From: an uncultured Gammaproteobacteria bacterium
GTDB lineage: Bacteria > Patescibacteriota > Patescibacteriia > VMEV01 > CAZAJQ01
Length of the DNA: 64,000 nt
Assembly (NCBI GenBank): GCA_964485795.1
Contig: CAZAJQ010000006.1
Location: 9,716-73,715, forward strand
Direction: 5' to 3'
The notes below the pieces were generated by a model. The model was not told the DNA's origin. It was given only the letters and a program-made list of their open reading frames with translations, and did no database searches. The position numbers were made by a program, and so were the translations under genes. Shown here one piece after another: positions 1 through 39,322 of the stretch. Within the stretch, counting starts at the first letter, position 1. The number at the start of each line of letters is the position of its first letter.

Positions 1-620
1 GACTTGGTCGCCGAAATCATCGCTTTCTCTTTTGACGGTCGTTTCTTTGCGCAAAAAATGACATTTTCATTGCCAAGTCTTCTCACGATTTCGGATACGA
101 GTTCATGGGCACCCCGATCCGGCGCCACCAAAACCGCTTGGCTCATTTCCAAAGGAATCTGTAGAATGACGTGTGTAAGAATATCGGCGCCGCTGATCTC
201 GAAAAGCGCTTTTCTTCCAATATACGAACGAACTCGATCGCTGTGAAGATGGCAGGATATGATAATATCAGCTCCGGATTTTTTGAGCATATTGGCCATC
301 AATCGCGCTGTGATCGGCTCTCCTGGCTCAACGATGCGATCCTGCTTTTCATAGGCGAAATACGGAAGAAGAAGATATATTTTCTTCGCACCGTTTTCCC
401 GTAAGGCGTTGAGAAGCACGCAAAGCTTGAAAAAATGATCGCAAGGAGGGATCGTCTCCGAGAAGACCGCGACATCTTTACCTTTCACCCCTTCCAATAC
501 CTTGATCATGATTTCTCCGTCGGAAAACTGCATCTCCTCCATATTCGCGGAGGAAAAGTATCCCGACTTCAAAAGCGCTTTTTTATAATCTTCATTGTTT
601 GATAGCGAGAAGAGAAGCAT
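1..620 (-). CDS. prs: ribose-phosphate pyrophosphokinase (PRPP synthetase), partial; C-terminus lies beyond the window start
   Basis: Minus-strand translation from an ATG at 620 gives MLLFSLSNNEDYKKALLKSGYFSSANMEEMQFSDGEIMIKVLEGVKGKDVAVFSE...KIYLLLPYFAYEKQDRIVEPGEPITARLMANMLKKSGADIIISCHLHS. This matches the Prs N-terminal domain, including the RFSDGE-like and PYFGYARQDRK-like motifs. The frame is open to position 1. This ORF is absent from the supplied track because it is partial. Confidence 0.75.
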   Translation of the reverse strand, partial: MLLFSLSNNEDYKKALLKSGYFSSANMEEMQFSDGEIMIKVLEGVKGKDVAVFSETIPPCDHFFKLCVLLNALRENGAKKIYLLLPYFAYEKQDRIVEPGEPITARLMANMLKKSGADIIISCHLHSDRVRSYIGRKALFEISGADILTHVILQIPLEMSQAVLVAPDRGAHELVSEIVRRLGNENVIFCAKKRPSKEKAMISATK

Positions 621-668
621 AGGTTCATTTCTTTTGGAACTCAAAAAATATGATCGATCATAATCGCG

Positions 669-1337
669 TCATGATGACGGCCGTGCAAGGTGCGAATTAA
701 AACGATTTCGTGCGATTTCCAATAATTGTTTCACCTCATCATCTTCCACCTGCCGGAAATCCTTGTAAAAAGCGCCTACGGAACCAAACAGCCGAGGAGC
801 GTCAAGAAAAATGAGCTCGTCGCACAACGATTGCATTTCGGAAACCAGTTCGTGCGGCAAGACGGGAACGGCGACGACGATCTTTTTTGCACCGTGTCGC
901 TTCGCATACGCTATCGCGGCCTTCATGGTGTATCCCGTGGCAATGCCGTCGTCAACGAGTATGACCGCCGAATCCTTCAAGGGATACGATTTTCTTCCGG
1001 CTCTCAGGAGATGTTCTTTTGCCATGATTTTTGAGAGAATTTCTTTTTGTTTTTGGACGATATATTCTTTTGAAATGCCATACTCGGCAATCATGGATTC
1101 ATTCAGCATGGCGCAATCTTTCGAAGCGATGGCTCCGATCGCGAGCTCCTCATTTCCCGGGGCTGGTATTTTTTTACTGACGATGATATCCAAAGGAGCC
1201 GACAGATATTCCGATATTTCAAACGCCGGCACCACGCCTCCTCGGGGCAATCCGATGATAAGCGCATCCTTGCCTCGATAGAGAAGAAGTTTTTTGGCCA
1301 GCACATCCCCGGCTTCCTTTCGATCATGAAACATCAT
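669..1337 (-). CDS. phosphoribosyltransferase-domain protein (COG1926-like predicted PRTase)
   Basis: 222-aa ORF. It has a PRTase-fold PRPP-binding loop ILVDDGIATGYTMKAAI and an N-terminal LIIGLPRGGVVPAFEIS segment. It lies directly upstream of prs on the same strand. Confidence 0.65.
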   Translation of the reverse strand: MMFHDRKEAGDVLAKKLLLYRGKDALIIGLPRGGVVPAFEISEYLSAPLDIIVSKKIPAPGNEELAIGAIASKDCAMLNESMIAEYGISKEYIVQKQKEILSKIMAKEHLLRAGRKSYPLKDSAVILVDDGIATGYTMKAAIAYAKRHGAKKIVVAVPVLPHELVSEMQSLCDELIFLDAPRLFGSVGAFYKDFRQVEDDEVKQLLEIARNRFNSHLARPSS

Positions 1338-1486
1338 AAGTTTTCTTTAATTGCTTTCATTATATGACAAGAACTGCTGATGCGACAGATGGGCGATGCG
1401 AACTCTTGTAAAATTCCATCTCTCGCGTTTTCTATCAAATTTTATTTGCCTTTGACGGTGCTTTTTGTCAGACTTATGAAGTTCTA

Positions 1487-1514
1487 TTGCAATTTCATTC
1501 AATCGGTTCATAAT
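1487..1514 (+). promoter_or_regulatory. candidate sigma70-type promoter for tRNA-Arg (TTGCAA-16-CATAAT)
   Basis: TTGCAA at 1487-1492 and CATAAT at 1509-1514 with a 16-nt spacer. The tRNA 5' end at 1523 is 8 nt downstream of the -10 hexamer. Confidence 0.4.
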
Positions 1515-1522
1515 CGACTCAT

Positions 1523-1597
1523 GTCCCTATAGTTTAATGGATAAAACACAGGTTTCCGAAGCCTGCGATGGAGGTTCGATTCCCCCTGGGGACACCA
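1523..1597 (+). tRNA. tRNA-Arg (anticodon CCG), CCA encoded
   Basis: Cloverleaf read by eye. Acceptor stem GTCCCTA/TGGGGAC. D-arm GTTT-AATGGATA-AAAC. Anticodon stem CAGGT/GCCTG with loop TTCCGAA, giving anticodon CCG. T-arm GGAGG-TTCGATT-CCCCC with one A.C mismatch. Discriminator A followed by CCA. Confidence 0.8.
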
Positions 1598-1640
1598 ATC
1601 ATTTTCATACATTTCCTCCAAAATAATATTCATGTCAATA

Positions 1641-1676
1641 AAAAAAAACAGGAAAGATCGTATTCTTCCCTGTTTG
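1641..1676 (-). terminator. intrinsic terminator downstream of the 765-aa ORF
   Basis: On the minus strand: ACAGGGAAGA-ATACGA-TCTTTCCTGT hairpin followed by a run of nine T. It sits immediately 3' of the stop at 1683. Confidence 0.5.
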
Positions 1677-1682
1677 GTATGG

Positions 1683-3980
1683 TCAATAAATATCTTTTCT
1701 ATCTTCCACATAAAAATAGAAATGATCCCCCTCAAGTTTGAAAAGGATTCGAAGCGGATCGCAGCGTAACCTCCACAACCCGCGGGTTTTCCCGATAAGT
1801 CCATTTACTTTTCGCTGGAGTCGCATCCTGTCGCTGGGTGTGGCCAAGAGATATCCGGCGATTTTTTCCAATATCTTCTCACCAGAAATGGAAAATCCGA
1901 ATGGCTCAAAATACACTGCGAATGCTTCACAGGTTGGTTCAATGATTTCAAAAGCGCTGAAATCTTTACCTTTGCTGATCTCGAGCGTATACACTACCGG
2001 TGATACCTCTACAGCATCGATGACCGGCTTATCCTTCTCATCCCATTCACGCCCTTCGTATTTCCGCTTTCTCCTGCCGGTTTGAAAATCAGATTTTTTT
2101 TGTCCGTCCTTTCTTTCCAAGAGCATATCTCTCACAGTGAGGCAGACAAGCTCGAGAAACAGTGCACGAAAATTATCGCTCACTTTTTCTCGCCAGCTCA
2201 CTTCCACAAGTTTTCTTGCAAGCTGCTCTTCGAAATCGCTTCCATGAAATGTTTTTCCTCCGGATGAAAAAAAATTTTCTTCGCATTGGGCAATCTTCTT
2301 GCATTGTGAAAACATTTTCACTATTTTACTGCCCAAGGTAAAATACTTCTTCCCAAACGCATCGTTGATCTCTTTCCTATCGGCTTCAATCAGACTGAAA
2401 AAACGATCTTGCGATTTTTCAAAAGCTCTTTCCTTGTCCTTCATTGAAACATCAACGAGCATTTGTGAGGCTCGAAAAATCAAATATTCAAAAATCTCGG
2501 TGAGATCGTTTACGTTCGTATAACGACGCTCATGTCCAAAAAACTCGGAAATCATGGCGGACTCTTTTTCCGGATATTTGCTGATATAGTGGCGCAAATC
2601 CGCTAATGAGCTCAAGGCATTTTCTTTCTCCTTGATTGCCATAGTTCGCCGCTCTTTTTCGAGTTCATTTCGCCGGCTGACATCGTCTTTGCGTCCCAGG
2701 AGCGAACTGAATTTCCCCAGCTTTGGAGCGATTTCCAATGCTCTCTCATAGAGTTTTTTCCCGACAAGGAGCGCAAAAAGGCAATCCATCTCATGCTCGT
2801 GCCGCTTATTGGGCTGAATCATGACTATCTTCTCAACGGGAAGTTTTTGAAATTTTCCCGCCCATTCATAAAGGCTTTGTGATTCGTCCTTCAGTAATTG
2901 GGCGAAGCCCAGTGACGCAAATTCCTCTCGGAATTTGAGGTATTCGATAACTTCAGACACATCATGTCTTCTCCCTTCATACATGCTATCCAAAGCTTCA
3001 ACATATTTTTTTCTCCTTGCCTCCAGCTCTAGGTCGTGTCGTTTTATCACCGCTGATTCAAGCTCATCATATCGCTCCCAATAAAGGAAATAGATGACTT
3101 GATCGATGAGTTTTTCGTATGATTCCTTCTCTTGAGACCGCTCCGTTGCCTCATCATAATAGGTAACCGTTTTTTGCAGCGTCTCAAAATCGTCGTCATA
3201 CGCCGCCGTCATGATTTTCAGCAGCACCTTGAGCAGGTAGGACGGGCACATGACAGACAGATTCACCGCCTTGATCAAGGCATGCATGGTACCGTCGTCC
3301 AAAAAACTCAACAAATCCGGAATGTCTTTCACACCTTCGAAAAATCGACATTTCATCTTCCATTGAGCCACGATGCGCCGAAGCAAGCCCTCATTTTCCA
3401 TCAATTCACCGCAATATTCCAGAAAAGTATCCATGTCATTGTTATCGGTTTTCGATGCATTGACTCGAAAATCAAATAACTTGCAAATGCTGTTCCATTC
3501 CCCCAGCCAAAATGAAAAGCACATTGCGCATGTTCTTTTTTCAAGCATTATATTCTCTCTCCCACATGTGGAAATATAATCTGCCATGACCATCTGAAAT
3601 TCTTCCTTCATGCCATAACAAAAATAGGTGAATAATCCTTCTTGCTGATAGTGAATGGAGCTTGGATTACATTTTCGCGCAGCGGCGACCAGTGCCAGCC
3701 TCATCTCTTTTTTTTCACTTTCTTTCACTATGACCTGTTCATCCATAAGCAAAGAGAAAGCATTATCAAACATGAGCTCGGTCGGAGGTGGCGACAATTC
3801 TATCGCCTTCATATAGCATCTCAAAGCGCTCACATACTTTCTCTTCAGAAAATTGAGATCTCCGGCGAGATGCATGGGATTGATCGTCCCGTCAATTTTC
3901 AGTTTCACTTTTTTCATGATACGTTCCTTTTTAAACTGTAACGAAACATTCCAAAACAACAATTTTTTATTGTAACCCAT
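1683..3980 (-). CDS. large hypothetical protein (up to 765 aa; likely ATG at 3917 giving MKKVKLKID...) with a C-terminal RelE/ParE-fold toxin-like domain
   Basis: Uninterrupted 2.3-kb ORF. The N-terminal 650 aa are mostly helical and include a TPR-like start (YVSALRCYMKAIELSP). The last 100 aa, VYTLEISKGKDF...GLWRLRCDPLRILFKLEGDHFYFYVEDRKDIY, align with the RelE/ParE consensus (…LYRIRVGDYRIIYEIDDENKIIYILKIGHRKDVY), including the conserved Arg residues and terminal Tyr. Confidence 0.6.
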   Translation of the reverse strand: MGYNKKLLFWNVSLQFKKERIMKKVKLKIDGTINPMHLAGDLNFLKRKYVSALRCYMKAIELSPPPTELMFDNAFSLLMDEQVIVKESEKKEMRLALVAAARKCNPSSIHYQQEGLFTYFCYGMKEEFQMVMADYISTCGRENIMLEKRTCAMCFSFWLGEWNSICKLFDFRVNASKTDNNDMDTFLEYCGELMENEGLLRRIVAQWKMKCRFFEGVKDIPDLLSFLDDGTMHALIKAVNLSVMCPSYLLKVLLKIMTAAYDDDFETLQKTVTYYDEATERSQEKESYEKLIDQVIYFLYWERYDELESAVIKRHDLELEARRKKYVEALDSMYEGRRHDVSEVIEYLKFREEFASLGFAQLLKDESQSLYEWAGKFQKLPVEKIVMIQPNKRHEHEMDCLFALLVGKKLYERALEIAPKLGKFSSLLGRKDDVSRRNELEKERRTMAIKEKENALSSLADLRHYISKYPEKESAMISEFFGHERRYTNVNDLTEIFEYLIFRASQMLVDVSMKDKERAFEKSQDRFFSLIEADRKEINDAFGKKYFTLGSKIVKMFSQCKKIAQCEENFFSSGGKTFHGSDFEEQLARKLVEVSWREKVSDNFRALFLELVCLTVRDMLLERKDGQKKSDFQTGRRKRKYEGREWDEKDKPVIDAVEVSPVVYTLEISKGKDFSAFEIIEPTCEAFAVYFEPFGFSISGEKILEKIAGYLLATPSDRMRLQRKVNGLIGKTRGLWRLRCDPLRILFKLEGDHFYFYVEDRKDIY

Positions 3981-4089
3981 TCAATAATTATTGTCAAAAT
4001 ATCTTTTTATTATGGACTATCATTAGCGATAACAAAAAAATCTCCATAAAGAGATTTTTTTGCGAGTGATTTTAAAAAAGAATGGATTT

Positions 4090-4329
4090 TTATTTTTTCA
4101 TCATGTCCATCCCGGAACACATCATGCAATCCTTTTTATGCGTTACGAGAATATACAGAGCCGAAAGACCGACAGCCGCATAAATGACACGCGCAACCGT
4201 TGAGCTCATGCCTCCGAGAAGAGACGCTACGAGGTCGTATTGAAAAAATCCGACCAATCCCCAGTTAAGTCCTCCGATAAGAAGCAGGAGGAAAGCAAGC
4301 ATATGGAGTCCGCTTTTGTTTTGGGACAT
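4090..4329 (-). CDS. DUF378-family small membrane protein
   Basis: 79 aa with two predicted TM helices. The motif LLLLIGGLNWGLVGFFQYDLVASLLGG matches the DUF378 signature (INWGLVG…FDLVA…GG). Confidence 0.55.
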   Translation of the reverse strand: MSQNKSGLHMLAFLLLLIGGLNWGLVGFFQYDLVASLLGGMSSTVARVIYAAVGLSALYILVTHKKDCMMCSGMDMMKK

Positions 4330-4814
4330 AAATGAAATAAATTAAGAATAAAAAAGCTTAGAGATGATGAACTTTATTTATAATAGCATCATCGCTACGG
4401 ATATCATAATTTTTGTCAAGGATTTTAAAGAATCAGCATGGCATCCCCAAACGAGTAGAGATGGTATCTCTCCGCAATAGCAAATCGGTCATCAATATAT
4501 CGACGATTCGAAAATCACATGAGGAACGAAAAAGAATATCCTCCTTGAGCAGATCTATCGCGCAACGACGATTCTTCGAGGGAAAGAGTATCATCATTGA
4601 TATCGACCATCAATGCATTTGACGCAGCATCACCCCATTTGATACATTTTCTGATAAAGAAGGCTCACTTCTTCTTTTTTAATTGATCCAATATTTCGTC
4701 ATGCTACATTTTTTCTGAGATGACTGCAGAAAACAAAAAAAATCTGTAACCATTCCATGTCCATGCAAAATTTATTCTCAGTGAACCGTTTTTGAGCAAT
4801 AATTTTCTCTCTAT

Positions 4815-17512: not shown

Positions 17513-18874
<1,362 letters not shown>

Positions 18875-18897
18875 TCACATTTAAAAAATTTCAATCT

Positions 18898-19018
18898 GAG
18901 ACTGTAGAAAAAGGATGAAATACGAAGCTCTGGAGTGAGCAGATTGGGAAAGATATGTGTTATATCTTGAGCAATCTGCGTAGCGAAGAGCGAGTAGTTC
19001 GCATTTTGCTACAGTCTC
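18898..19018 (+). mobile_element. MITE-like non-autonomous element, family B, copy A (121 bp, 16-bp terminal inverted repeats, 5-bp direct repeat AATCT on both flanks)
   Basis: Ends GAGACTGTAGAAAAAGG...CATTTTGCTACAGTCTC. AATCT occurs at 18893-18897 and again at 19019-23. It is nearly identical (a few mismatches) to the reverse complement of 38643-38763. No ORF fits inside. Confidence 0.6.
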
Positions 19019-19050
19019 AATCTCTAAAATATTTCTCATCATGTAAATTT

Positions 19051-19974
19051 CTAATAGGCTGCTTCGAGCGCCAATTTCCCCGACGATATTTCCGCGATTT
19101 CTTGTGTGATGGCCGCTTGGCGAGCGGAGTTAAGATCCAGCGTCAAACCTTTCAACATATCCGAAGCGGCGTCCGTGGCGTTTTTCATGGTCAACATGCG
19201 AGCCGAATGTTCGCTCGCGTCAGACTCGAGCACGGCCTGATACACCTGCATTTCGATAAGCCGCGGAATAAGCGCGTCGAGCACCGACGAAGCCGATGGT
19301 TCAAAACGAAATTCGCGGTGATAGGTATCTCCCGTGAATATGGAACCCGCCGAACTTTTCGCAAGAATATCCCCAAACATCTCCTCAGCCGCCGCATCAA
19401 AAGGCAAAAGTTGTTTGACTCGTACCCTCTGCTTTCCGGCCGACACAAAATCCGTATAGATGAGAATGACCTTATCGTAGACCCTTTCTCGATATTTTGA
19501 AATCAGCATTTCGCTCATGGGCAAAACCTCCACCATGCTCGTCAAAACATCCGGCTTGGGAAAATCCGCCACAACCTTACGTTTTTCCCGCAAAAGCATA
19601 TCCCTCACTTTCTTCCCATATGTTATGCATTCGATCGTTTTGCGAACATATTCCTGCTCCATGAGAGAGATTGTTTTCTCGAAAATCTTGGTATTGAACG
19701 CTCCGCACAGTCCTCGATTTGAGCCGATGATGAGCATGGCAACGCTTTCGCTACGTTCATCTTTCCGCAATAAAACATGAGAACGAGGATCGGTTTTTTC
19801 CAAAAGATCGAGAAGAATCTGCCAGGCGAGGGATGCATACGGACGGGTCGAAAGAGCGTTTTGTACGGCGCGACGCATTTTGGACGCAGAAACAAGCTCC
19901 ATGGCTTTGGTGATTTTCTTGGTATTTTTCACCGATTTTATCCGAGTTCGAATTTCTTTCAATGCGCCTGGCAT
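19051..19974 (-). CDS. atpG: F0F1 ATP synthase subunit gamma
   Basis: MPGALKEIRTRIKSVKNTKKITKAMELVSASKMRRAVQN is the gamma-subunit N-terminus. The start is placed at the internal Met, not the longer track ORF. Confidence 0.9.
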   Translation of the reverse strand: MPGALKEIRTRIKSVKNTKKITKAMELVSASKMRRAVQNALSTRPYASLAWQILLDLLEKTDPRSHVLLRKDERSESVAMLIIGSNRGLCGAFNTKIFEKTISLMEQEYVRKTIECITYGKKVRDMLLREKRKVVADFPKPDVLTSMVEVLPMSEMLISKYRERVYDKVILIYTDFVSAGKQRVRVKQLLPFDAAAEEMFGDILAKSSAGSIFTGDTYHREFRFEPSASSVLDALIPRLIEMQVYQAVLESDASEHSARMLTMKNATDAASDMLKGLTLDLNSARQAAITQEIAEISSGKLALEAAY

Positions 19975-21933: not shown

Positions 21934-21947
21934 ACAATGATAATTTA

Positions 21948-22049
21948 CCCCCACACCAAATCAGCAGACAGATTCGTAAATTCATGTATATATTGTTGTG
22001 TGATAAATGATTTCATAAACAATCAAAAATCCTCTGATTTGGTGTGGGG
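21948..22049 (+). repeat. MITE-like / structured repeat, family A, copy 1 (102 bp, 16-bp terminal inverted repeats CCCCACACCAAATCAG)
   Basis: CCCCACACCAAATCAG at 21948-21963 and its reverse complement CTGATTTGGTGTGGGG at 22034-22049. It sits in the atpH-atpF intergenic space. Related copies are at 30638-30738 and 32559-32664. Confidence 0.55.
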
Positions 22050-22054
22050 ATGAA

Positions 22055-22543
22055 TTACTCTTTCAGTGCTTCATCGATGATTTTTTGATCGGTTTTTGAA
22101 TCCAATTTTTGAGCAAGAATCTTCTGCGTCGCGGAAATGACCAAATCTTTGATCTCGGATTTCACTTCAAAAAACATCTTTTCCTTTTCCTCAGCGATAA
22201 GTTGCTTGGCGCGCAGGATGACAGCCTCGGATTCTTTTTTGGTCGCCGCCAAAATTTCGACTTTGTGCTGCTCGGCTTGCTTTTTAGCGAGCATAAGAGT
22301 TTCATTGGCCTGTTTTTTTGCTTCGAGCAGAATACTTTTTCGATCCTTTTCCGAAGATGCGAGCATGGTTTCGATTTTTTGTGATTCATGGATGCTTTTT
22401 TCCACCATGCGCTGTCGTTCATCCAAAAGCTTCAAAAGCGGTTTATACAAGAAGCGATACAGCACCACAAGCAATACGACAAAATTGATGATTTGCGCCA
22501 GTATGAGTCGTATGTCAATTCCCAGTTTTGAGAGAAGTTCCAT
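22055..22543 (-). CDS. atpF: F0F1 ATP synthase subunit b
   Basis: N-terminal TM helix followed by a long charged coiled coil (AKKQAEQHKVEILAATKKESEAVILRAKQ). Confidence 0.8.
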   Translation of the reverse strand: MELLSKLGIDIRLILAQIINFVVLLVVLYRFLYKPLLKLLDERQRMVEKSIHESQKIETMLASSEKDRKSILLEAKKQANETLMLAKKQAEQHKVEILAATKKESEAVILRAKQLIAEEKEKMFFEVKSEIKDLVISATQKILAQKLDSKTDQKIIDEALKE

Positions 22544-30624: not shown

Positions 30625-30637
30625 AAAAAGGGTTCAT

Positions 30638-30738
30638 CCCCACACCAAATCAGACGGACATTCGTAAGAATGAACAATATATAATTCTCACAAACAATAC
30701 TCATCAATCAAACCATATTGCACTGATTTGGTGTGGGG
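30638..30738 (+). repeat. MITE-like / structured repeat, family A, copy 2
   Basis: CCCCACACCAAATCAGAC...CACTGATTTGGTGTGGGG. It has the same orientation as copy 1, and the first 30 nt of the core are related (AGACGGACATTCGTAAGAATGAAC versus CAGACAGATTCGTAAATTCATG). It lies between the murF-like gene and ftsI. Confidence 0.55.
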
Positions 30739-30804
30739 ATAAATACATTATGGCAATAATAGTAAAGCGCGTCAAAAATATTGAGACAACAAAAAAACAC
30801 TCGC

Positions 30805-32550: not shown

Positions 32551-32558
32551 ATCAATTA

Positions 32559-32664
32559 CCCCTCACACCAAATCAGACGATCATTGATTTGATTATCGAA
32601 TATTATTCTCGCCACTGAATATTGTAAATCTTGCAAATCTGGCTGTCTGATTTGGTGTGAGGGG
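32559..32664 (-). repeat. MITE-like / structured repeat, family A, copy 3 (inverted relative to copies 1 and 2; both terminal repeats carry the same TC insertion, CCCCTCACACCAAATCAGAC)
   Basis: CCCCTCACACCAAATCAGAC at 32559-32578 and GTCTGATTTGGTGTGAGGGG at 32645-32664. The reverse complement of the core begins CAGACAGCCAGATTTGCAAG, which resembles the start of the copy 1 core. Confidence 0.5.
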
Positions 32665-32667
32665 GGA

Positions 32668-33006
32668 TTATTTGCTTGCAAATTTCGTATCGCGCAGCTC
32701 AAGATACTGAACATTTTTTTGTGATTGAAAATTTTTTCCGACAATACTCTTTTGGATTCGAGATATTGATTGGAGTTTGGCCGCTACGATTTTTAAGCTG
32801 GATTTTTGTTCTTCAAGTCCCTTGACCTGTTGCTCGAGATCGCGGATGACATACCCCTTGGTGGCCGTATCATTGACTTGCAAGAGATACAGAAACGTAA
32901 AAACGATCGTAACGGCGACGGTAATGATGCGATATCGCTCCCCTATCCGGAGATACGACGGCTTGACCGTCTCTTGCAAACGACCAGACTTTGAAAAATC
33001 ATGCAT
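32668..33006 (-). CDS. FtsL-like cell-division protein (single TM plus coiled coil)
   Basis: 112 aa with a TM helix (IITVAVTIVFTFLYLL) followed by a heptad-rich segment. It sits between rsmH and ftsI, as ftsL does in dcw clusters. Confidence 0.5.
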   Translation of the reverse strand: MHDFSKSGRLQETVKPSYLRIGERYRIITVAVTIVFTFLYLLQVNDTATKGYVIRDLEQQVKGLEEQKSSLKIVAAKLQSISRIQKSIVGKNFQSQKNVQYLELRDTKFASK

Positions 33007-38169: not shown

Positions 38170-38607
38170 TTATTTCAAAACTACCTTTCCTCCGGCCGCT
38201 TCGATCTTTTTCTTCATCTCTTCGGCTTCCTCCTTTTTAACGTTTTCTTTGAGCACTTTCGGAGCCTTATCCGTAAGATCTTTGGCGTCTTTGAGACCAA
38301 GACCCGTGATTTCACGAACAACCTTGATAACATTGATCTTGCTTGATCCGGCATCCGTAAGCTCGACCGTAAACTCGCTTTTTTCTTCGGCAGGAGCGGC
38401 TGCACCAGCGGCCGCCGGCATGGCACCCATCGCCATCATGGGAGCGGCAGCTGAAACTCCGAATTTTTTCTCAAGTACGGATACCAGCTCGGAAAGATCC
38501 AGAACGCTGAGCTGCTCAATTTGTGAAACGAGATTCTGAAATTTGGCCGGAACCTCGACTTTGGTTTCAGTCGCGGCGGATTCCATCGTGGGATTTTGAT
38601 CTGACAT
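38170..38607 (-). CDS. rplL: 50S ribosomal protein L7/L12
   Basis: N-terminal dimerisation helix, an Ala/Pro-rich hinge ([20 protein letters not shown]), and the C-terminal domain [53 protein letters not shown]. Confidence 0.9.
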
Positions 38608-38642
38608 AGGGGTATATTAGAAATTACCAATGAATAGGGGTT

Positions 38643-38763
38643 GAGACTGTAGAAAAATGCGAACTACTCGCTCTTCGCTACGCAGATTGCTCAAGATACA
38701 ACACATATCTTTCCCAATCTGCTCGCTCCAGAGCTTCGTATTTCATCATTTTTCTACAGTCTC
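38643..38763 (-). mobile_element. MITE-like non-autonomous element, family B, copy B (121 bp, inverted relative to copy A, flanked by the 5-bp direct repeat GGGTT)
   Basis: GAGACTGTAGAAAAATG...CATTTTTCTACAGTCTC. GGGTT occurs at 38638-38642 and 38764-38768. Its reverse complement is nearly identical to 18898-19018. It lies in the rplL-rplJ intergenic region. Confidence 0.6.
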
Positions 38764-38776
38764 GGGTTATAAAAAT

Positions 38777-39322
38777 TTATGCCGCTTTTTTGTCTTTCAC
38801 GGCTGATAAAACGTAGACCAATGACCTCAGATTACCAGCGAGGACATTGACCATGCCTGACAAGGGCGATGCAATGCTAGAAACGACTTTTGCCAAAAGA
38901 ACTTCTCTTGCCGGAATATTTGCCAAAGCTTGGGTTTGCACGGCATCAAGCATGCGCTGTCCGGAAGGGCTCGCGGTCAAAACCGACGCCACCATCTCAA
39001 AAGGCTCATGGGTTTTGCCAAACTCCTTGGCAAGTTTTGCTCCCGTCACCTCGTCGGCATAACTCATGATCACGGCCAATTCTTTGCGACTCACGACCGT
39101 CGGGTCAATATCGGACATTTGGGCGGCTTCAAAAGCCTTTCGAAGCAGGGTCTTTTTGGCAACCAGATATTCTGAATTTTCCAGCTTGACCTTGCGGCGC
39201 AATGTCTCCAGCTCAGAAACCGGAATGCCGCTGAATTGCACAAAAACAACGCTTTTTGCGGTTTGAAGCTTCCGAACAAGCTTCTGAATGATTTCGGACT
39301 TGTGTTGCTTGGAAATGGGCAT
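38777..39322 (-). CDS. rplJ: 50S ribosomal protein L10
   Basis: MPISKQHKSEIIQKLVRKLQTAKSVVFVQFSGIPVSELETLRRKV matches the L10 N-terminus. It lies upstream of rplL. Confidence 0.9.
   Translation of the reverse strand: MPISKQHKSEIIQKLVRKLQTAKSVVFVQFSGIPVSELETLRRKVKLENSEYLVAKKTLLRKAFEAAQMSDIDPTVVSRKELAVIMSYADEVTGAKLAKEFGKTHEPFEMVASVLTASPSGQRMLDAVQTQALANIPAREVLLAKVVSSIASPLSGMVNVLAGNLRSLVYVLSAVKDKKAA

What the first reader, a model, noticed from the sequence alone, without database searches (positions are those of the whole stretch)
18898..19018. 121-bp MITE-like element with target-site duplication inserted between atpD and atpG (family B, copy A)
The sequence 18898-19018 is a 121-bp imperfect palindrome. 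It has 16-nt terminal inverted repeats (GAGACTGTAGAAAAAGG ... CATTTTGCTACAGTCTC) and internal sub-hairpins (GCGAA...TTCGC, AGATTG...CAATCT). The pentamer AATCT is present immediately on both sides (18893-18897 and 19019-19023), as expected for a transposition target-site duplication. A second copy in inverted orientation, with only a few mismatches, sits at 38643-38763 with a different flanking pentamer. Two near-identical copies at unrelated loci, each with its own 5-bp direct repeat and no coding capacity, point to a non-autonomous transposon mobilised in trans. It is inserted inside the polycistronic atp operon and will be co-transcribed as a long stem-loop, so it could affect mRNA processing or stability. 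The cognate transposase is not in this window.
Basis: seen in the sequence. Interest (0 to 1): 0.72.

Follow-up and report, generated by a model that had tools for sequence, protein, structure and literature searches.

The report
Mobile hairpin element inside two operons
The 121-bp palindrome between atpG and atpD is a small non-coding transposon (MITE) whose ends match those of an IS5-type insertion sequence found in related ultra-small (CPR) bacteria. It is a new family of a familiar kind of element, not a new kind of biology.

Summary
A 121-bp imperfect palindrome sits at 18898-19018 and an inverted copy at 38643-38763. The two are 117/121 identical, and each is flanked by its own 5-bp direct repeat (AATCT, GGGTT). 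Copy A lies between atpG and atpD; copy B lies between rplJ and rplL.

The interpretation as a MITE is supported and extended. The same 16-17-nt terminus (GAGACTGTAGAAAAAT[G]) bounds 120-240-bp hairpin elements with unrelated cores in many Patescibacteria/CPR genomes and metagenomes. About 35 of these have exact 5- or 6-bp target duplications of the form A...T.

The same terminus also bounds a 1271-bp insertion sequence. It encodes a 346-aa DDE transposase (DUF772 + DDE_Tnp_1; above the cut-off of the NCBIfam IS5 model) and makes 5-bp duplications. That IS is not in the window, nor in about 20 kb of extra sequence from this organism.

The relatives examined lack the element at both sites. No Rfam family matches it, and neither a promoter nor a convincing terminator is created.

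An effect on mRNA, such as RNase III cleavage of the co-transcribed hairpin, is plausible but untested.

Verdict: real, correctly read, new member of a known kind, modest interest.

The parts
18898..19018 (.). MITE copy A, a 121-bp imperfect palindrome in the atpG-atpD spacer
   Evidence: It is 117/121 identical to copy B. The hairpin is -41 kcal/mol on the transcribed (minus) strand, z = -8.3.
18898..18914 (+). Left terminal inverted repeat of copy A, GAGACTGTAGAAAAAGG
   Evidence: Position 16 departs from the family consensus.
19002..19018 (-). Right terminal inverted repeat of copy A (read on the minus strand: GAGACTGTAGCAAAATG)
   Evidence: Position 11 departs from the consensus.
18893..18897 (.). 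Target-site duplication AATCT, left copy
19019..19023 (.). Target-site duplication AATCT, right copy
38643..38763 (.). MITE copy B, 121 bp, inverted relative to copy A, in the rplJ-rplL spacer
   Evidence: It has perfect 17-nt terminal inverted repeats. The hairpin is -61.8 kcal/mol on the transcribed (minus) strand, z = -10.4.
38643..38659 (+). Terminal inverted repeat of copy B, GAGACTGTAGAAAAATG
   Evidence: The first 17 nt are identical to the left end of the 1271-bp IS.
38747..38763 (-). Terminal inverted repeat of copy B (the other end). Identity to the left end of the IS extends inward to 38745 (19 nt, GAGACTGTAGAAAAATGAT).
38638..38642 (.). Target-site duplication GGGTT, left copy
38764..38768 (.). 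Target-site duplication GGGTT, right copy
17513..18868 (-). atpD (ATP synthase beta subunit), the gene downstream of copy A. Its start codon is 24 nt from the duplication.
19051..19974 (-). atpG (ATP synthase gamma subunit; 307-aa call), the gene upstream of copy A. Its stop codon is 27 nt from the duplication.
38170..38607 (-). rplL (ribosomal protein L7/L12), the gene downstream of copy B
38777..39322 (-). rplJ (ribosomal protein L10), the gene upstream of copy B

Best explanation
The element is a non-autonomous DNA transposon (MITE) of a family spread through Patescibacteria/CPR bacteria. It is defined by a 16-17-nt terminal inverted repeat, GAGACTGTAGAAAAAT(G).

Mechanism: a DDE transposase of an IS5-family insertion sequence with the same ends binds the two termini, excises or copies the element, and inserts it at a staggered cut of 5 (sometimes 6) bp. 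The preferred site is T|A(N3-4)T|A. Repair of the staggered cut produces the flanking direct repeat.

The two copies in this window are recent: they differ at 4 of 121 positions. They landed in short spacers inside the atp and rplJL operons, in opposite orientations, without touching coding sequence. They are almost certainly transcribed as part of those mRNAs and fold there into a long hairpin.

Shown here: the anatomy, the family, the duplications, the matching autonomous IS with its 5-bp duplications, and absence from orthologous sites in relatives.

Inferred: that this particular transposase clade mobilised these two copies; that the copies are co-transcribed; any effect on mRNA.
For: 1. 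Anatomy: terminal inverted repeats, 5-bp direct repeats, two copies 96.7% identical over the full length.

2. Family:
- A scan of species-representative genomes for the two 10-nt tips at MITE spacing gave 38 loci.
- Among these loci, 35-36 elements of 118-241 bp have exact 5- or 6-bp duplications. Nearly all duplications start with A and end with T, preceded by T and followed by A.
- Conservation ends at position 16-17 and the cores differ between subfamilies, yet every element folds as a long hairpin.
- Named hosts are Saccharibacteria, Uhrbacteria, Kerfeldbacteria, Vogelbacteria, Parcubacteria and 'Patescibacteria group'.

3. Autonomous partner:
- 1271-bp elements at L052 2301-3571 and L133 3935-5205, and a copy 77% identical at L111 61-1329. 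Ends are GAGACTGTAGAAAAATGATCG and AAGACTGTAGAAAAATAGAC.
- They encode a 346-aa protein with DUF772 (6.6e-19) and DDE_Tnp_1 (5.8e-17). NCBIfam IS5_4 scores 151 bits against a cut-off of 140.
- There are 217 homologues at E<1e-20. All those carrying a source name are labelled transposase or IS5 family transposase, from Patescibacteria, Uhrbacteria, Sungbacteria or Berkelbacteria.

4. Duplications made by the IS:
- Ten contigs carrying the identical IS show the same set of 5-mers next to the left and right ends (AAGAT, AAAAC, AAATT, AATTT).
- One contig (L175) has AAATT on both sides.
- Joining the two AAAAC flanks restores an uninterrupted hsdM reading frame...GPNMF|YNVT.

5. Copy B's ends match the left end of the IS for 17 and 19 nt.

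6. Orthologous spacers in relatives lack the element: atpG-atpD in L041, L042 and L043; rplJ-rplL in L187 (30 bp) and L186 (72 bp).

7. No Rfam family matches. The two copies lie in opposite orientation relative to transcription.
Against: - No transposase of this clade was found in the window or in about 20 kb of extra sequence from the same organism. The rest of the genome could not be searched.
- Only two copies of this 121-bp subfamily were seen anywhere.
- No empty-site allele was found in the same species. The nearest relatives are only 83% (AtpD) and 51% (L10) identical, so absence from them is weak evidence of recent insertion.
- The element core shares nothing with the IS beyond the termini, so it is not a simple deletion derivative of the IS copies seen.
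- A 5-bp duplication is not what I recall for the named IS5 subgroups (2-4, 8 or 9 bp). This rests on memory and was not checked against ISfinder.
- Copy A has a mutation in each terminal repeat and may no longer be mobile.
Confidence: 0.9

Rival explanations
1. The element is a MITE by origin but has been retained as a functional intercistronic RNA element. The co-transcribed hairpin would be cut by RNase III, or would block exonucleases. This would uncouple the stability of the upstream and downstream cistrons and help set unequal subunit ratios.
For: - Both copies lie 24-30 nt upstream of the start codon of a gene whose product is needed in 3-4-fold excess over the upstream gene's product (beta over gamma; L7/L12 over L10). 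The stoichiometries are established knowledge; the positions come.
- The hairpins on the transcribed strands are strong. Copy B has a 17-bp perfect duplex at its base.
- The atpG-atpD spacers of two of three relatives carry unrelated but significant hairpins (z = -3.4 and -5.9).
- A related CPR-like locus encodes RNase III-like and RNase Y proteins.
- Correia elements in Neisseria are cut by RNase III within their inverted repeats (PMC10969869; PMC2649163).
Against: - There are only two copies, in opposite orientations.
- Relatives manage with rplJ-rplL spacers of 30 and 72 bp and no such element.
- Across the family, insertions fall in tandem, convergent and divergent spacers (14, 4 and 2). 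That is roughly what random intergenic insertion would give in genomes where most neighbouring genes are co-oriented.
- No RNA data were available.
Confidence: 0.1
2. It is a conserved cis-regulatory or structural RNA of these operons (attenuator, terminator or protein-binding leader), not a mobile element.
For: - It folds very stably.
- A 5-bp stem followed by a T-rich tail inside the element was flagged as terminator-like.
Against: - No Rfam match, even at E up to 10.
- It is absent from the orthologous spacers of relatives.
- The same sequence sits in two unrelated operons in opposite orientations, each with its own direct repeat.
- The flagged mini-terminator lies antisense to the atp operon in copy A. 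It is weak (3 G-C pairs) and would be buried in the long hairpin. The number of terminator-like hits is close to that in shuffles (2 against 0.5 in the copy A region, 1 against 0.6 in the copy B region).
Confidence: 0.03
3. It is a REP/BIME-like palindromic element spread by a Y1 (RAYT, IS200/IS605-type) transposase or by recombination, not by a DDE transposase.
For: It is a palindromic, intergenic, multi-copy element. CPR intergenic regions hold several other palindrome families.
Against: - REP elements have no terminal inverted repeats bounded by target duplications (established knowledge).
- Here, 35-36 family members have exact 5/6-bp duplications.
- A DDE-type IS shares the termini.
Confidence: 0.02
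4. It is a true MITE, but it is mobilised by a different transposase from the IS5-clade element identified here.
For: - The partner IS was found only in other samples.
- A 67%-identical transposase present in the same sample (SRR12113383) has a diverged terminus, GAGTCTGGTGAAAAATGAT.
- The element core is unrelated to the IS.
Against: - Identity to the IS end is exact for 17 and 19 nt.
- Duplication length and the A-first target are the same for the IS and the MITEs.
- IS and MITE are found abutting each other (L111).
Confidence: 0.07

Closest known systems
Correia repeat-enclosed elements (CREE/NEMIS) of Neisseria
   Same: Both are 100-160-bp non-coding elements with terminal inverted repeats and target duplications. 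Both lie in intergenic regions and inside operons, and are co-transcribed as hairpins. In Neisseria these hairpins are cut by RNase III (review PMC10969869; PMC2649163).
   Different: - The terminal sequence is unrelated.
- The duplication here is 5-6 bp (A...T), whereas Correia elements duplicate TA (from memory).
- No promoter is created here.
- The host is a different phylum.
- An autonomous partner was identified here.
Chunjie MITE of Geobacter uraniireducens (Chen et al. 2008, PMC2516098, cited in PMC10969869)
   Same: A recently active MITE with conserved inverted repeats and direct repeats and variable length. [quoted passage not shown]
   Different: The sequence family and host are different. 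I did not read the primary paper, so its partner IS and duplication length are not compared.
IS5-family insertion sequences (nearest named: ISAba23-like; NCBIfam NF033581)
   Same: The partner transposase has DUF772 plus a DDE_Tnp_1 domain and scores above the NF033581 cut-off. The motifs IIDSTAV, VTADKAY and KVERIFAEGK are, by eye, where the D, D and E of IS5-type enzymes lie (inference). The IS is 1271 bp with one ORF.
   Different: - It is only 30% identical to the nearest annotated plasmid IS.
- Its duplication is 5 bp; the named IS5 subgroups are recalled as 2-4, 8 or 9 bp (memory).
- It scores higher in raw bits on the IS1182 model but below that model's cut-off.
- All source-named homologues listed come from CPR taxa.
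Tourist/PIF-Harbinger MITEs of eukaryotes
   Same: The relationship is the same: short hairpin MITEs with unrelated cores that share only their termini with an IS5-related DDE transposon (established knowledge).
   Different: Those are eukaryotic, make a 3-bp TWA duplication, and need a second Myb-like protein. There is no sequence relationship.

Membership tests
Prokaryotic MITE | Short (under about 300 bp) and non-coding | tested here: met
   The element is 121 bp. The only ORF that starts inside it (18955-19500, + strand) runs antisense through atpG and is spurious.
Prokaryotic MITE | Terminal inverted repeats | tested here: met
   Copy B has perfect 17-nt repeats; copy A matches at 15 of 17 positions.
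Prokaryotic MITE | Target-site duplication of constant length flanking independent copies | tested here: met
   AATCT and GGGTT in the window. Elsewhere, 23 exact 5-bp and 12 exact 6-bp duplications.
Prokaryotic MITE | Multiple dispersed copies in one genome | tested here: inconclusive
   Two copies were found in about 84 kb of this organism. The rest of the genome could not be searched. Other genomes hold six or more copies of sister subfamilies.
Prokaryotic MITE | Termini shared with an autonomous IS that could supply transposase in trans | tested here: met
   A 1271-bp IS has the same 16-19-nt ends and makes 5-bp duplications. It was found in other CPR samples, not in this genome.
Prokaryotic MITE | Presence/absence polymorphism (empty sites) | tested here: inconclusive
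   The element is absent at both sites in distant relatives. No empty allele was seen in the same population; Logan contigs from two runs show the filled site.
IS5 family (for the partner IS) | DDE_Tnp_1 catalytic domain with an N-terminal DUF772, and a score above the NCBIfam IS5 cut-off | tested here: met
   PF05598 at 6.6e-19 and PF01609 at 5.8e-17. NF033581 scores 151.2 against a cut-off of 140.
IS5 family (for the partner IS) | Duplication length of a named subgroup (IS5 4 bp, IS427 2-4, IS1031 3, ISL2 2-3, ISH1 8, IS903 9; recalled from ISfinder) | tested here: not met
   The IS makes 5-bp duplications. The subgroup therefore stays unassigned. The subgroup list is from memory.
IS1182 family (for the partner IS) | Score above the NCBIfam NF033551 cut-off, and a transposase of about 450-550 aa | tested here: not met
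   208.3 bits against a cut-off of 270, matched in three stretches only; the protein is 346 aa.
Correia/CREE | The Correia inverted-repeat sequence, a TA duplication and an IHF site | tested here: not met
   The terminus and the 5-bp duplication are different. The Correia features are recalled from PMC10969869 and from memory. An IHF site was not tested.
REP/BIME | A short G+C-rich palindrome without inverted-repeat-bounded duplications, associated with a RAYT gene | tested here: not met
   Duplications are present, the element is 43% G+C, and the partner is a DDE transposase.
Any Rfam RNA family | Covariance-model score at or above the gathering threshold | tested here: not met
   Only three tRNAs were found in the window. 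The best hits on the element have E values of 1.7-9.6, far below the gathering scores.

The most novel reading that the evidence does not exclude
CPR bacteria, which have tiny genomes and few regulators, may repeatedly recruit MITE hairpins as intercistronic RNA-processing or stability modules.

- In this genome one element family sits just upstream of atpD and rplL. These are the two cistrons whose products are needed in 3-4-fold excess over their upstream neighbours.
- A second palindromic family occupies the atpF-atpH spacer.
- Relatives carry unrelated hairpins at the same atpG-atpD position.

If so, the hairpins are selected features that set subunit stoichiometry, not neutral passengers.
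Probability: 0.08. Interest if true: 0.6.

Novelty: new member of a known kind. Interest (0 to 1): 0.3.

Why it matters
MITEs are well known in bacteria. I found no paper in the searchable library that describes them in Patescibacteria/CPR.

This family and its IS5-type partner are widespread across CPR classes. Five points follow:
- Active DNA transposition occurs in these reduced genomes.
- The family explains why CPR assemblies break at such repeats.
- The elements generate spurious ORFs and mis-joined contigs across IS copies.
- They offer natural markers for strain tracking.
- The matched transposase and terminus pair could be tried as a genetic tool for a group that has almost none.

The insertions into the atp and rplJL operons also show that long hairpins are tolerated inside essential, highly expressed transcripts.

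Tried and rejected
- **Rfam:** gathering-threshold scan of the whole window and a permissive scan of the element gave nothing.
- **Viral contigs:** the paired-tip pattern gave one chance hit. The 16-mer gave 40 single hits at chance level and one spurious 1642-bp 'pair' that encloses phage genes.
- **Literature search by sequence string:** it returned only primer hits.
- **More copies or a transposase in this organism:** I extended beyond the window by exact-protein look-ups. No further copy and no transposase turned up in L044, L045 or L047.
- **Empty-site allele in the same population:** only filled junctions were found.
- **The same 121-bp subfamily in 170 fetched loci:** none. Only 31-44-nt terminal similarity in L081, L107, L139 and L157.
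- **L169, L103 and L068 'long pairs':** rejected as an IS. They are a chance second terminus or two separate MITEs.
- **Global-alignment identity as a family test:** rejected, because a chance hit scored as high as true members.
- **Promoter or terminator creation:** no promoter-like site, and only a weak internal stem with a T-rich tail.
- **Taxon of the MAGs titled 'Gammaproteobacteria':** not settled. One of them encodes RNase Y, which makes the label doubtful. A tblastn against the held CPR sequence gave no hits.

Full report
**Observation**

The sequence at 18898-19018 is a 121-bp imperfect palindrome with the ends GAGACTGTAGAAAAAGG and CATTTTGCTACAGTCTC. It is flanked on both sides by AATCT.

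A second copy lies at 38643-38763 in inverted orientation, flanked on both sides by GGGTT. When the two are aligned, they differ at 4 of 121 positions, and similarity stops at the element ends.

The 15-nt terminus occurs four times in the window (up to 2 mismatches allowed) against 0.15 expected. All four strand versions fold into one long hairpin, with z between -7.6 and -10.4.

Logan assemblies of runs SRR12113383 and SRR12113384 independently contain the atpG-element junction. One of them also contains the element-rplL junction. All three contigs end inside the element, as expected at a repeat.

**Setting**

The window matches NCBI contig JACQLO010000005.1 of MAG GCA_016204025.1, a 'Parcubacteria group bacterium'.

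- Copy A lies between atpG (stop at 19051) and atpD (start at 18868).
- Copy B lies between rplJ (stop at 38777) and rplL (start at 38607).
- All four genes are on the minus strand.
- The two copies are in opposite orientation relative to transcription.
- Removing the element plus one copy of the duplication leaves spacers of 56 and 43 bp.

**Family**

I scanned one genome per species for the two 10-nt tips at MITE spacing. This gave 38 loci.

- About half are chance pairs or belong to other families.
- The rest have the extended terminus GAGACTGTAGAA(A/G)AAT and lie in Saccharibacteria, Uhrbacteria, Kerfeldbacteria, Vogelbacteria, Parcubacteria and 'Patescibacteria group' MAGs.
- Several are in MAGs titled Gammaproteobacteria. 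One of these encodes RNase Y, so that label is doubtful.

Across all loci, 61 distinct terminus pairs with readable flanks were found. Of these, 23 have an exact 5-bp duplication and 12 an exact 6-bp duplication. The duplications start with A (22 of 23) and end with T (23 of 23). They tend to be preceded by T and followed by A, which suggests a palindromic target T|A...T|A.

Positions 13-17 of the terminus were not part of the search filter. They are conserved up to position 16-17, and conservation is lost beyond that. The cores differ between subfamilies, but all 36 elements with exact duplications fold as long hairpins.

No other locus holds the 121-bp subfamily of this window.

Insertions lie in short spacers: 14 between co-oriented genes, 4 between convergent genes and 2 between divergent genes.

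**Autonomous partner**

Pairing termini at longer distances revealed 1271-bp elements in L052 and L133, and a copy 77% identical in L111.

- Their ends are GAGACTGTAGAAAAATGATCG and AAGACTGTAGAAAAATAGAC.
- They encode one 346-aa protein with DUF772 and DDE_Tnp_1 domains.
- That protein scores above the cut-off of NCBIfam IS5_4 and below the cut-off of the IS1182 model.
- Homologues number 217 at E<1e-20. All those carrying a source name are labelled transposase or IS5 family transposase, from CPR taxa.
- The nearest annotated plasmid IS, ISAba23-like, is 30% identical.

Ten contigs carry the identical IS. They join different flanks, which is expected when a 1.27-kb repeat is assembled from short reads. 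The 5-mers next to the two ends form the same set: AAGAT, AAAAC, AAATT, AATTT. One contig has AAATT on both sides. Joining the two AAAAC flanks restores an hsdM reading frame.

The IS therefore makes 5-bp duplications that begin with A, as the MITEs do. Copy B's two ends are identical to the left end of the IS for 17 and 19 nt, and nothing else in the element resembles the IS.

**What is missing**

The window holds no transposase of this clade. Neither do about 20 kb of extra sequence from the same organism.

A 67%-identical transposase occurs in the same sample. It has a diverged terminus and belongs to a Uhrbacteria MAG.

**Relatives**

The nearest AtpD sequences are only 79-83% identical.

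- The atpG-atpD spacers of three relatives are 86, 185 and 132 bp. None holds this element.
- Two of those spacers hold unrelated, significant hairpins.
- The rplJ-rplL spacers of two relatives are 30 and 72 bp, without the element. The 30-bp case has the same gene order as the window.

This argues against a conserved RNA element and for insertion in this lineage. The relatives are too distant to date the event.

**Function**

No sigma-70-like promoter is created. The only terminator-like feature is a 5-bp stem with a T-rich tail inside the element. It is antisense to the atp operon in copy A and sense to rplJL in copy B, and it would be buried within the long hairpin.

The elements are therefore most likely passengers that are read through. 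In Neisseria, Correia-element hairpins in mRNA are cut by RNase III, and this changes expression (PMC10969869; PMC2649163). The same could happen here, but nothing in the sequence shows it.

Both copies sit just upstream of the cistron that is needed in excess (beta over gamma, L7/L12 over L10). That is worth noting, but it rests on two cases.

**Verdict**

The element is a MITE of a previously undescribed (as far as the library shows) CPR-wide family. Its likely driver is a CPR clade of IS5-family insertion sequences. This is a new member of a known kind, of modest interest.

Noticed in passing
window 21941-22057, 30633-30743, 32554-32669: A second palindromic repeat family, about 115 bp long. 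Its 21-25-nt arms are (C)CCCACACCAAATCAG / CTGATTTGGTGTGGGG, separated by 66-69 nt. The arms are conserved and the cores are only weakly similar. All three copies lie in spacers between minus-strand genes; the first is inside the atp operon, between the b and delta subunit genes. It could be another MITE or a repeated regulatory palindrome.
   Followed up: partly
L041 1715-1800; L042 2816-3000; L043 2869-3000: The atpG-atpD spacers of the three nearest relatives are long (86-185 bp). Each contains a different palindromic or simple-repeat sequence. Two fold significantly (z = -3.4 and -5.9), with mismatches at regular intervals. This spacer is either an insertion hot spot or a place where hairpins are favoured.
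   Followed up: partly
L111 1329/1335; L036 1155/1161; L054 5186/5193: Two elements of the family abut end to end with only 5-6 bp between their termini. In L111 the pair is a full IS and a MITE. This suggests insertion next to an existing end, or a terminus-terminus junction intermediate.
   Followed up: no
L171/L180 and L173/L179 (Rifle-type groundwater contigs): The 1271-bp IS interrupts a type I restriction-modification methylase gene (hsdM). Different assemblies join different flanks across the IS, so contigs spanning this repeat are partly chimeric.
   Followed up: yes
L018 7246-7379; L024 4399-4531; L021 3842-3973: Elements in Planctomycetota and an unclassified MAG share the 10-nt tip but have the terminus GAGACTGTAGCAAG. 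L018 and L024 have exact 8-bp duplications; in L021 the flanks match at 7 of 8 positions. This is a separate MITE family, perhaps driven by a related transposase.
   Followed up: no
L013, L017, L039 (contig CBDHHR010000759.1, Metamycoplasmataceae MAG): Kilobases of a 71-213-bp satellite in direct and inverted blocks, all containing GAGACTGTAGAGTGA. It is unrelated to the MITE family.
   Followed up: no
L009 5061-6614 (CAYHPG010000038.1): A MAG titled 'uncultured Gammaproteobacteria' that carries three or four family members. It encodes RNase Y (TIGR03319, 621 bits), which is unusual for that class. The taxonomic label of this MAG, and of four similar MAGs, is probably wrong.
   Followed up: partly
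window 1-4359: Window coordinates equal NCBI contig coordinates plus 4359, so the first 4.3 kb of the window lie outside JACQLO010000005.1. A protein encoded there (669-1337) is found only in Logan contigs of SRR12113383-85.
   Followed up: partly
L006, L007, L026, L031, L033-L036 (element cores): Many sister subfamilies carry the hairpin GTCATTGCGAG...CGAAGCAATCT / AGATTGCTTCG...CTCGCAATGAC in their core. From memory, this motif gives rise to spurious 'RLLRFARND'-type ORFs in many environmental genomes. The window's element shares only the word GCGTAGCGAAG with it.
   Followed up: no
L038 1295-1327: A 33-bp unit made only of two family termini, back to back (GAGACTGTAGAAAAACTATTTTTCTACAGTCTC). 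It sits at the left end of a 118-bp element that is flanked by the AATTT duplication.
   Followed up: no
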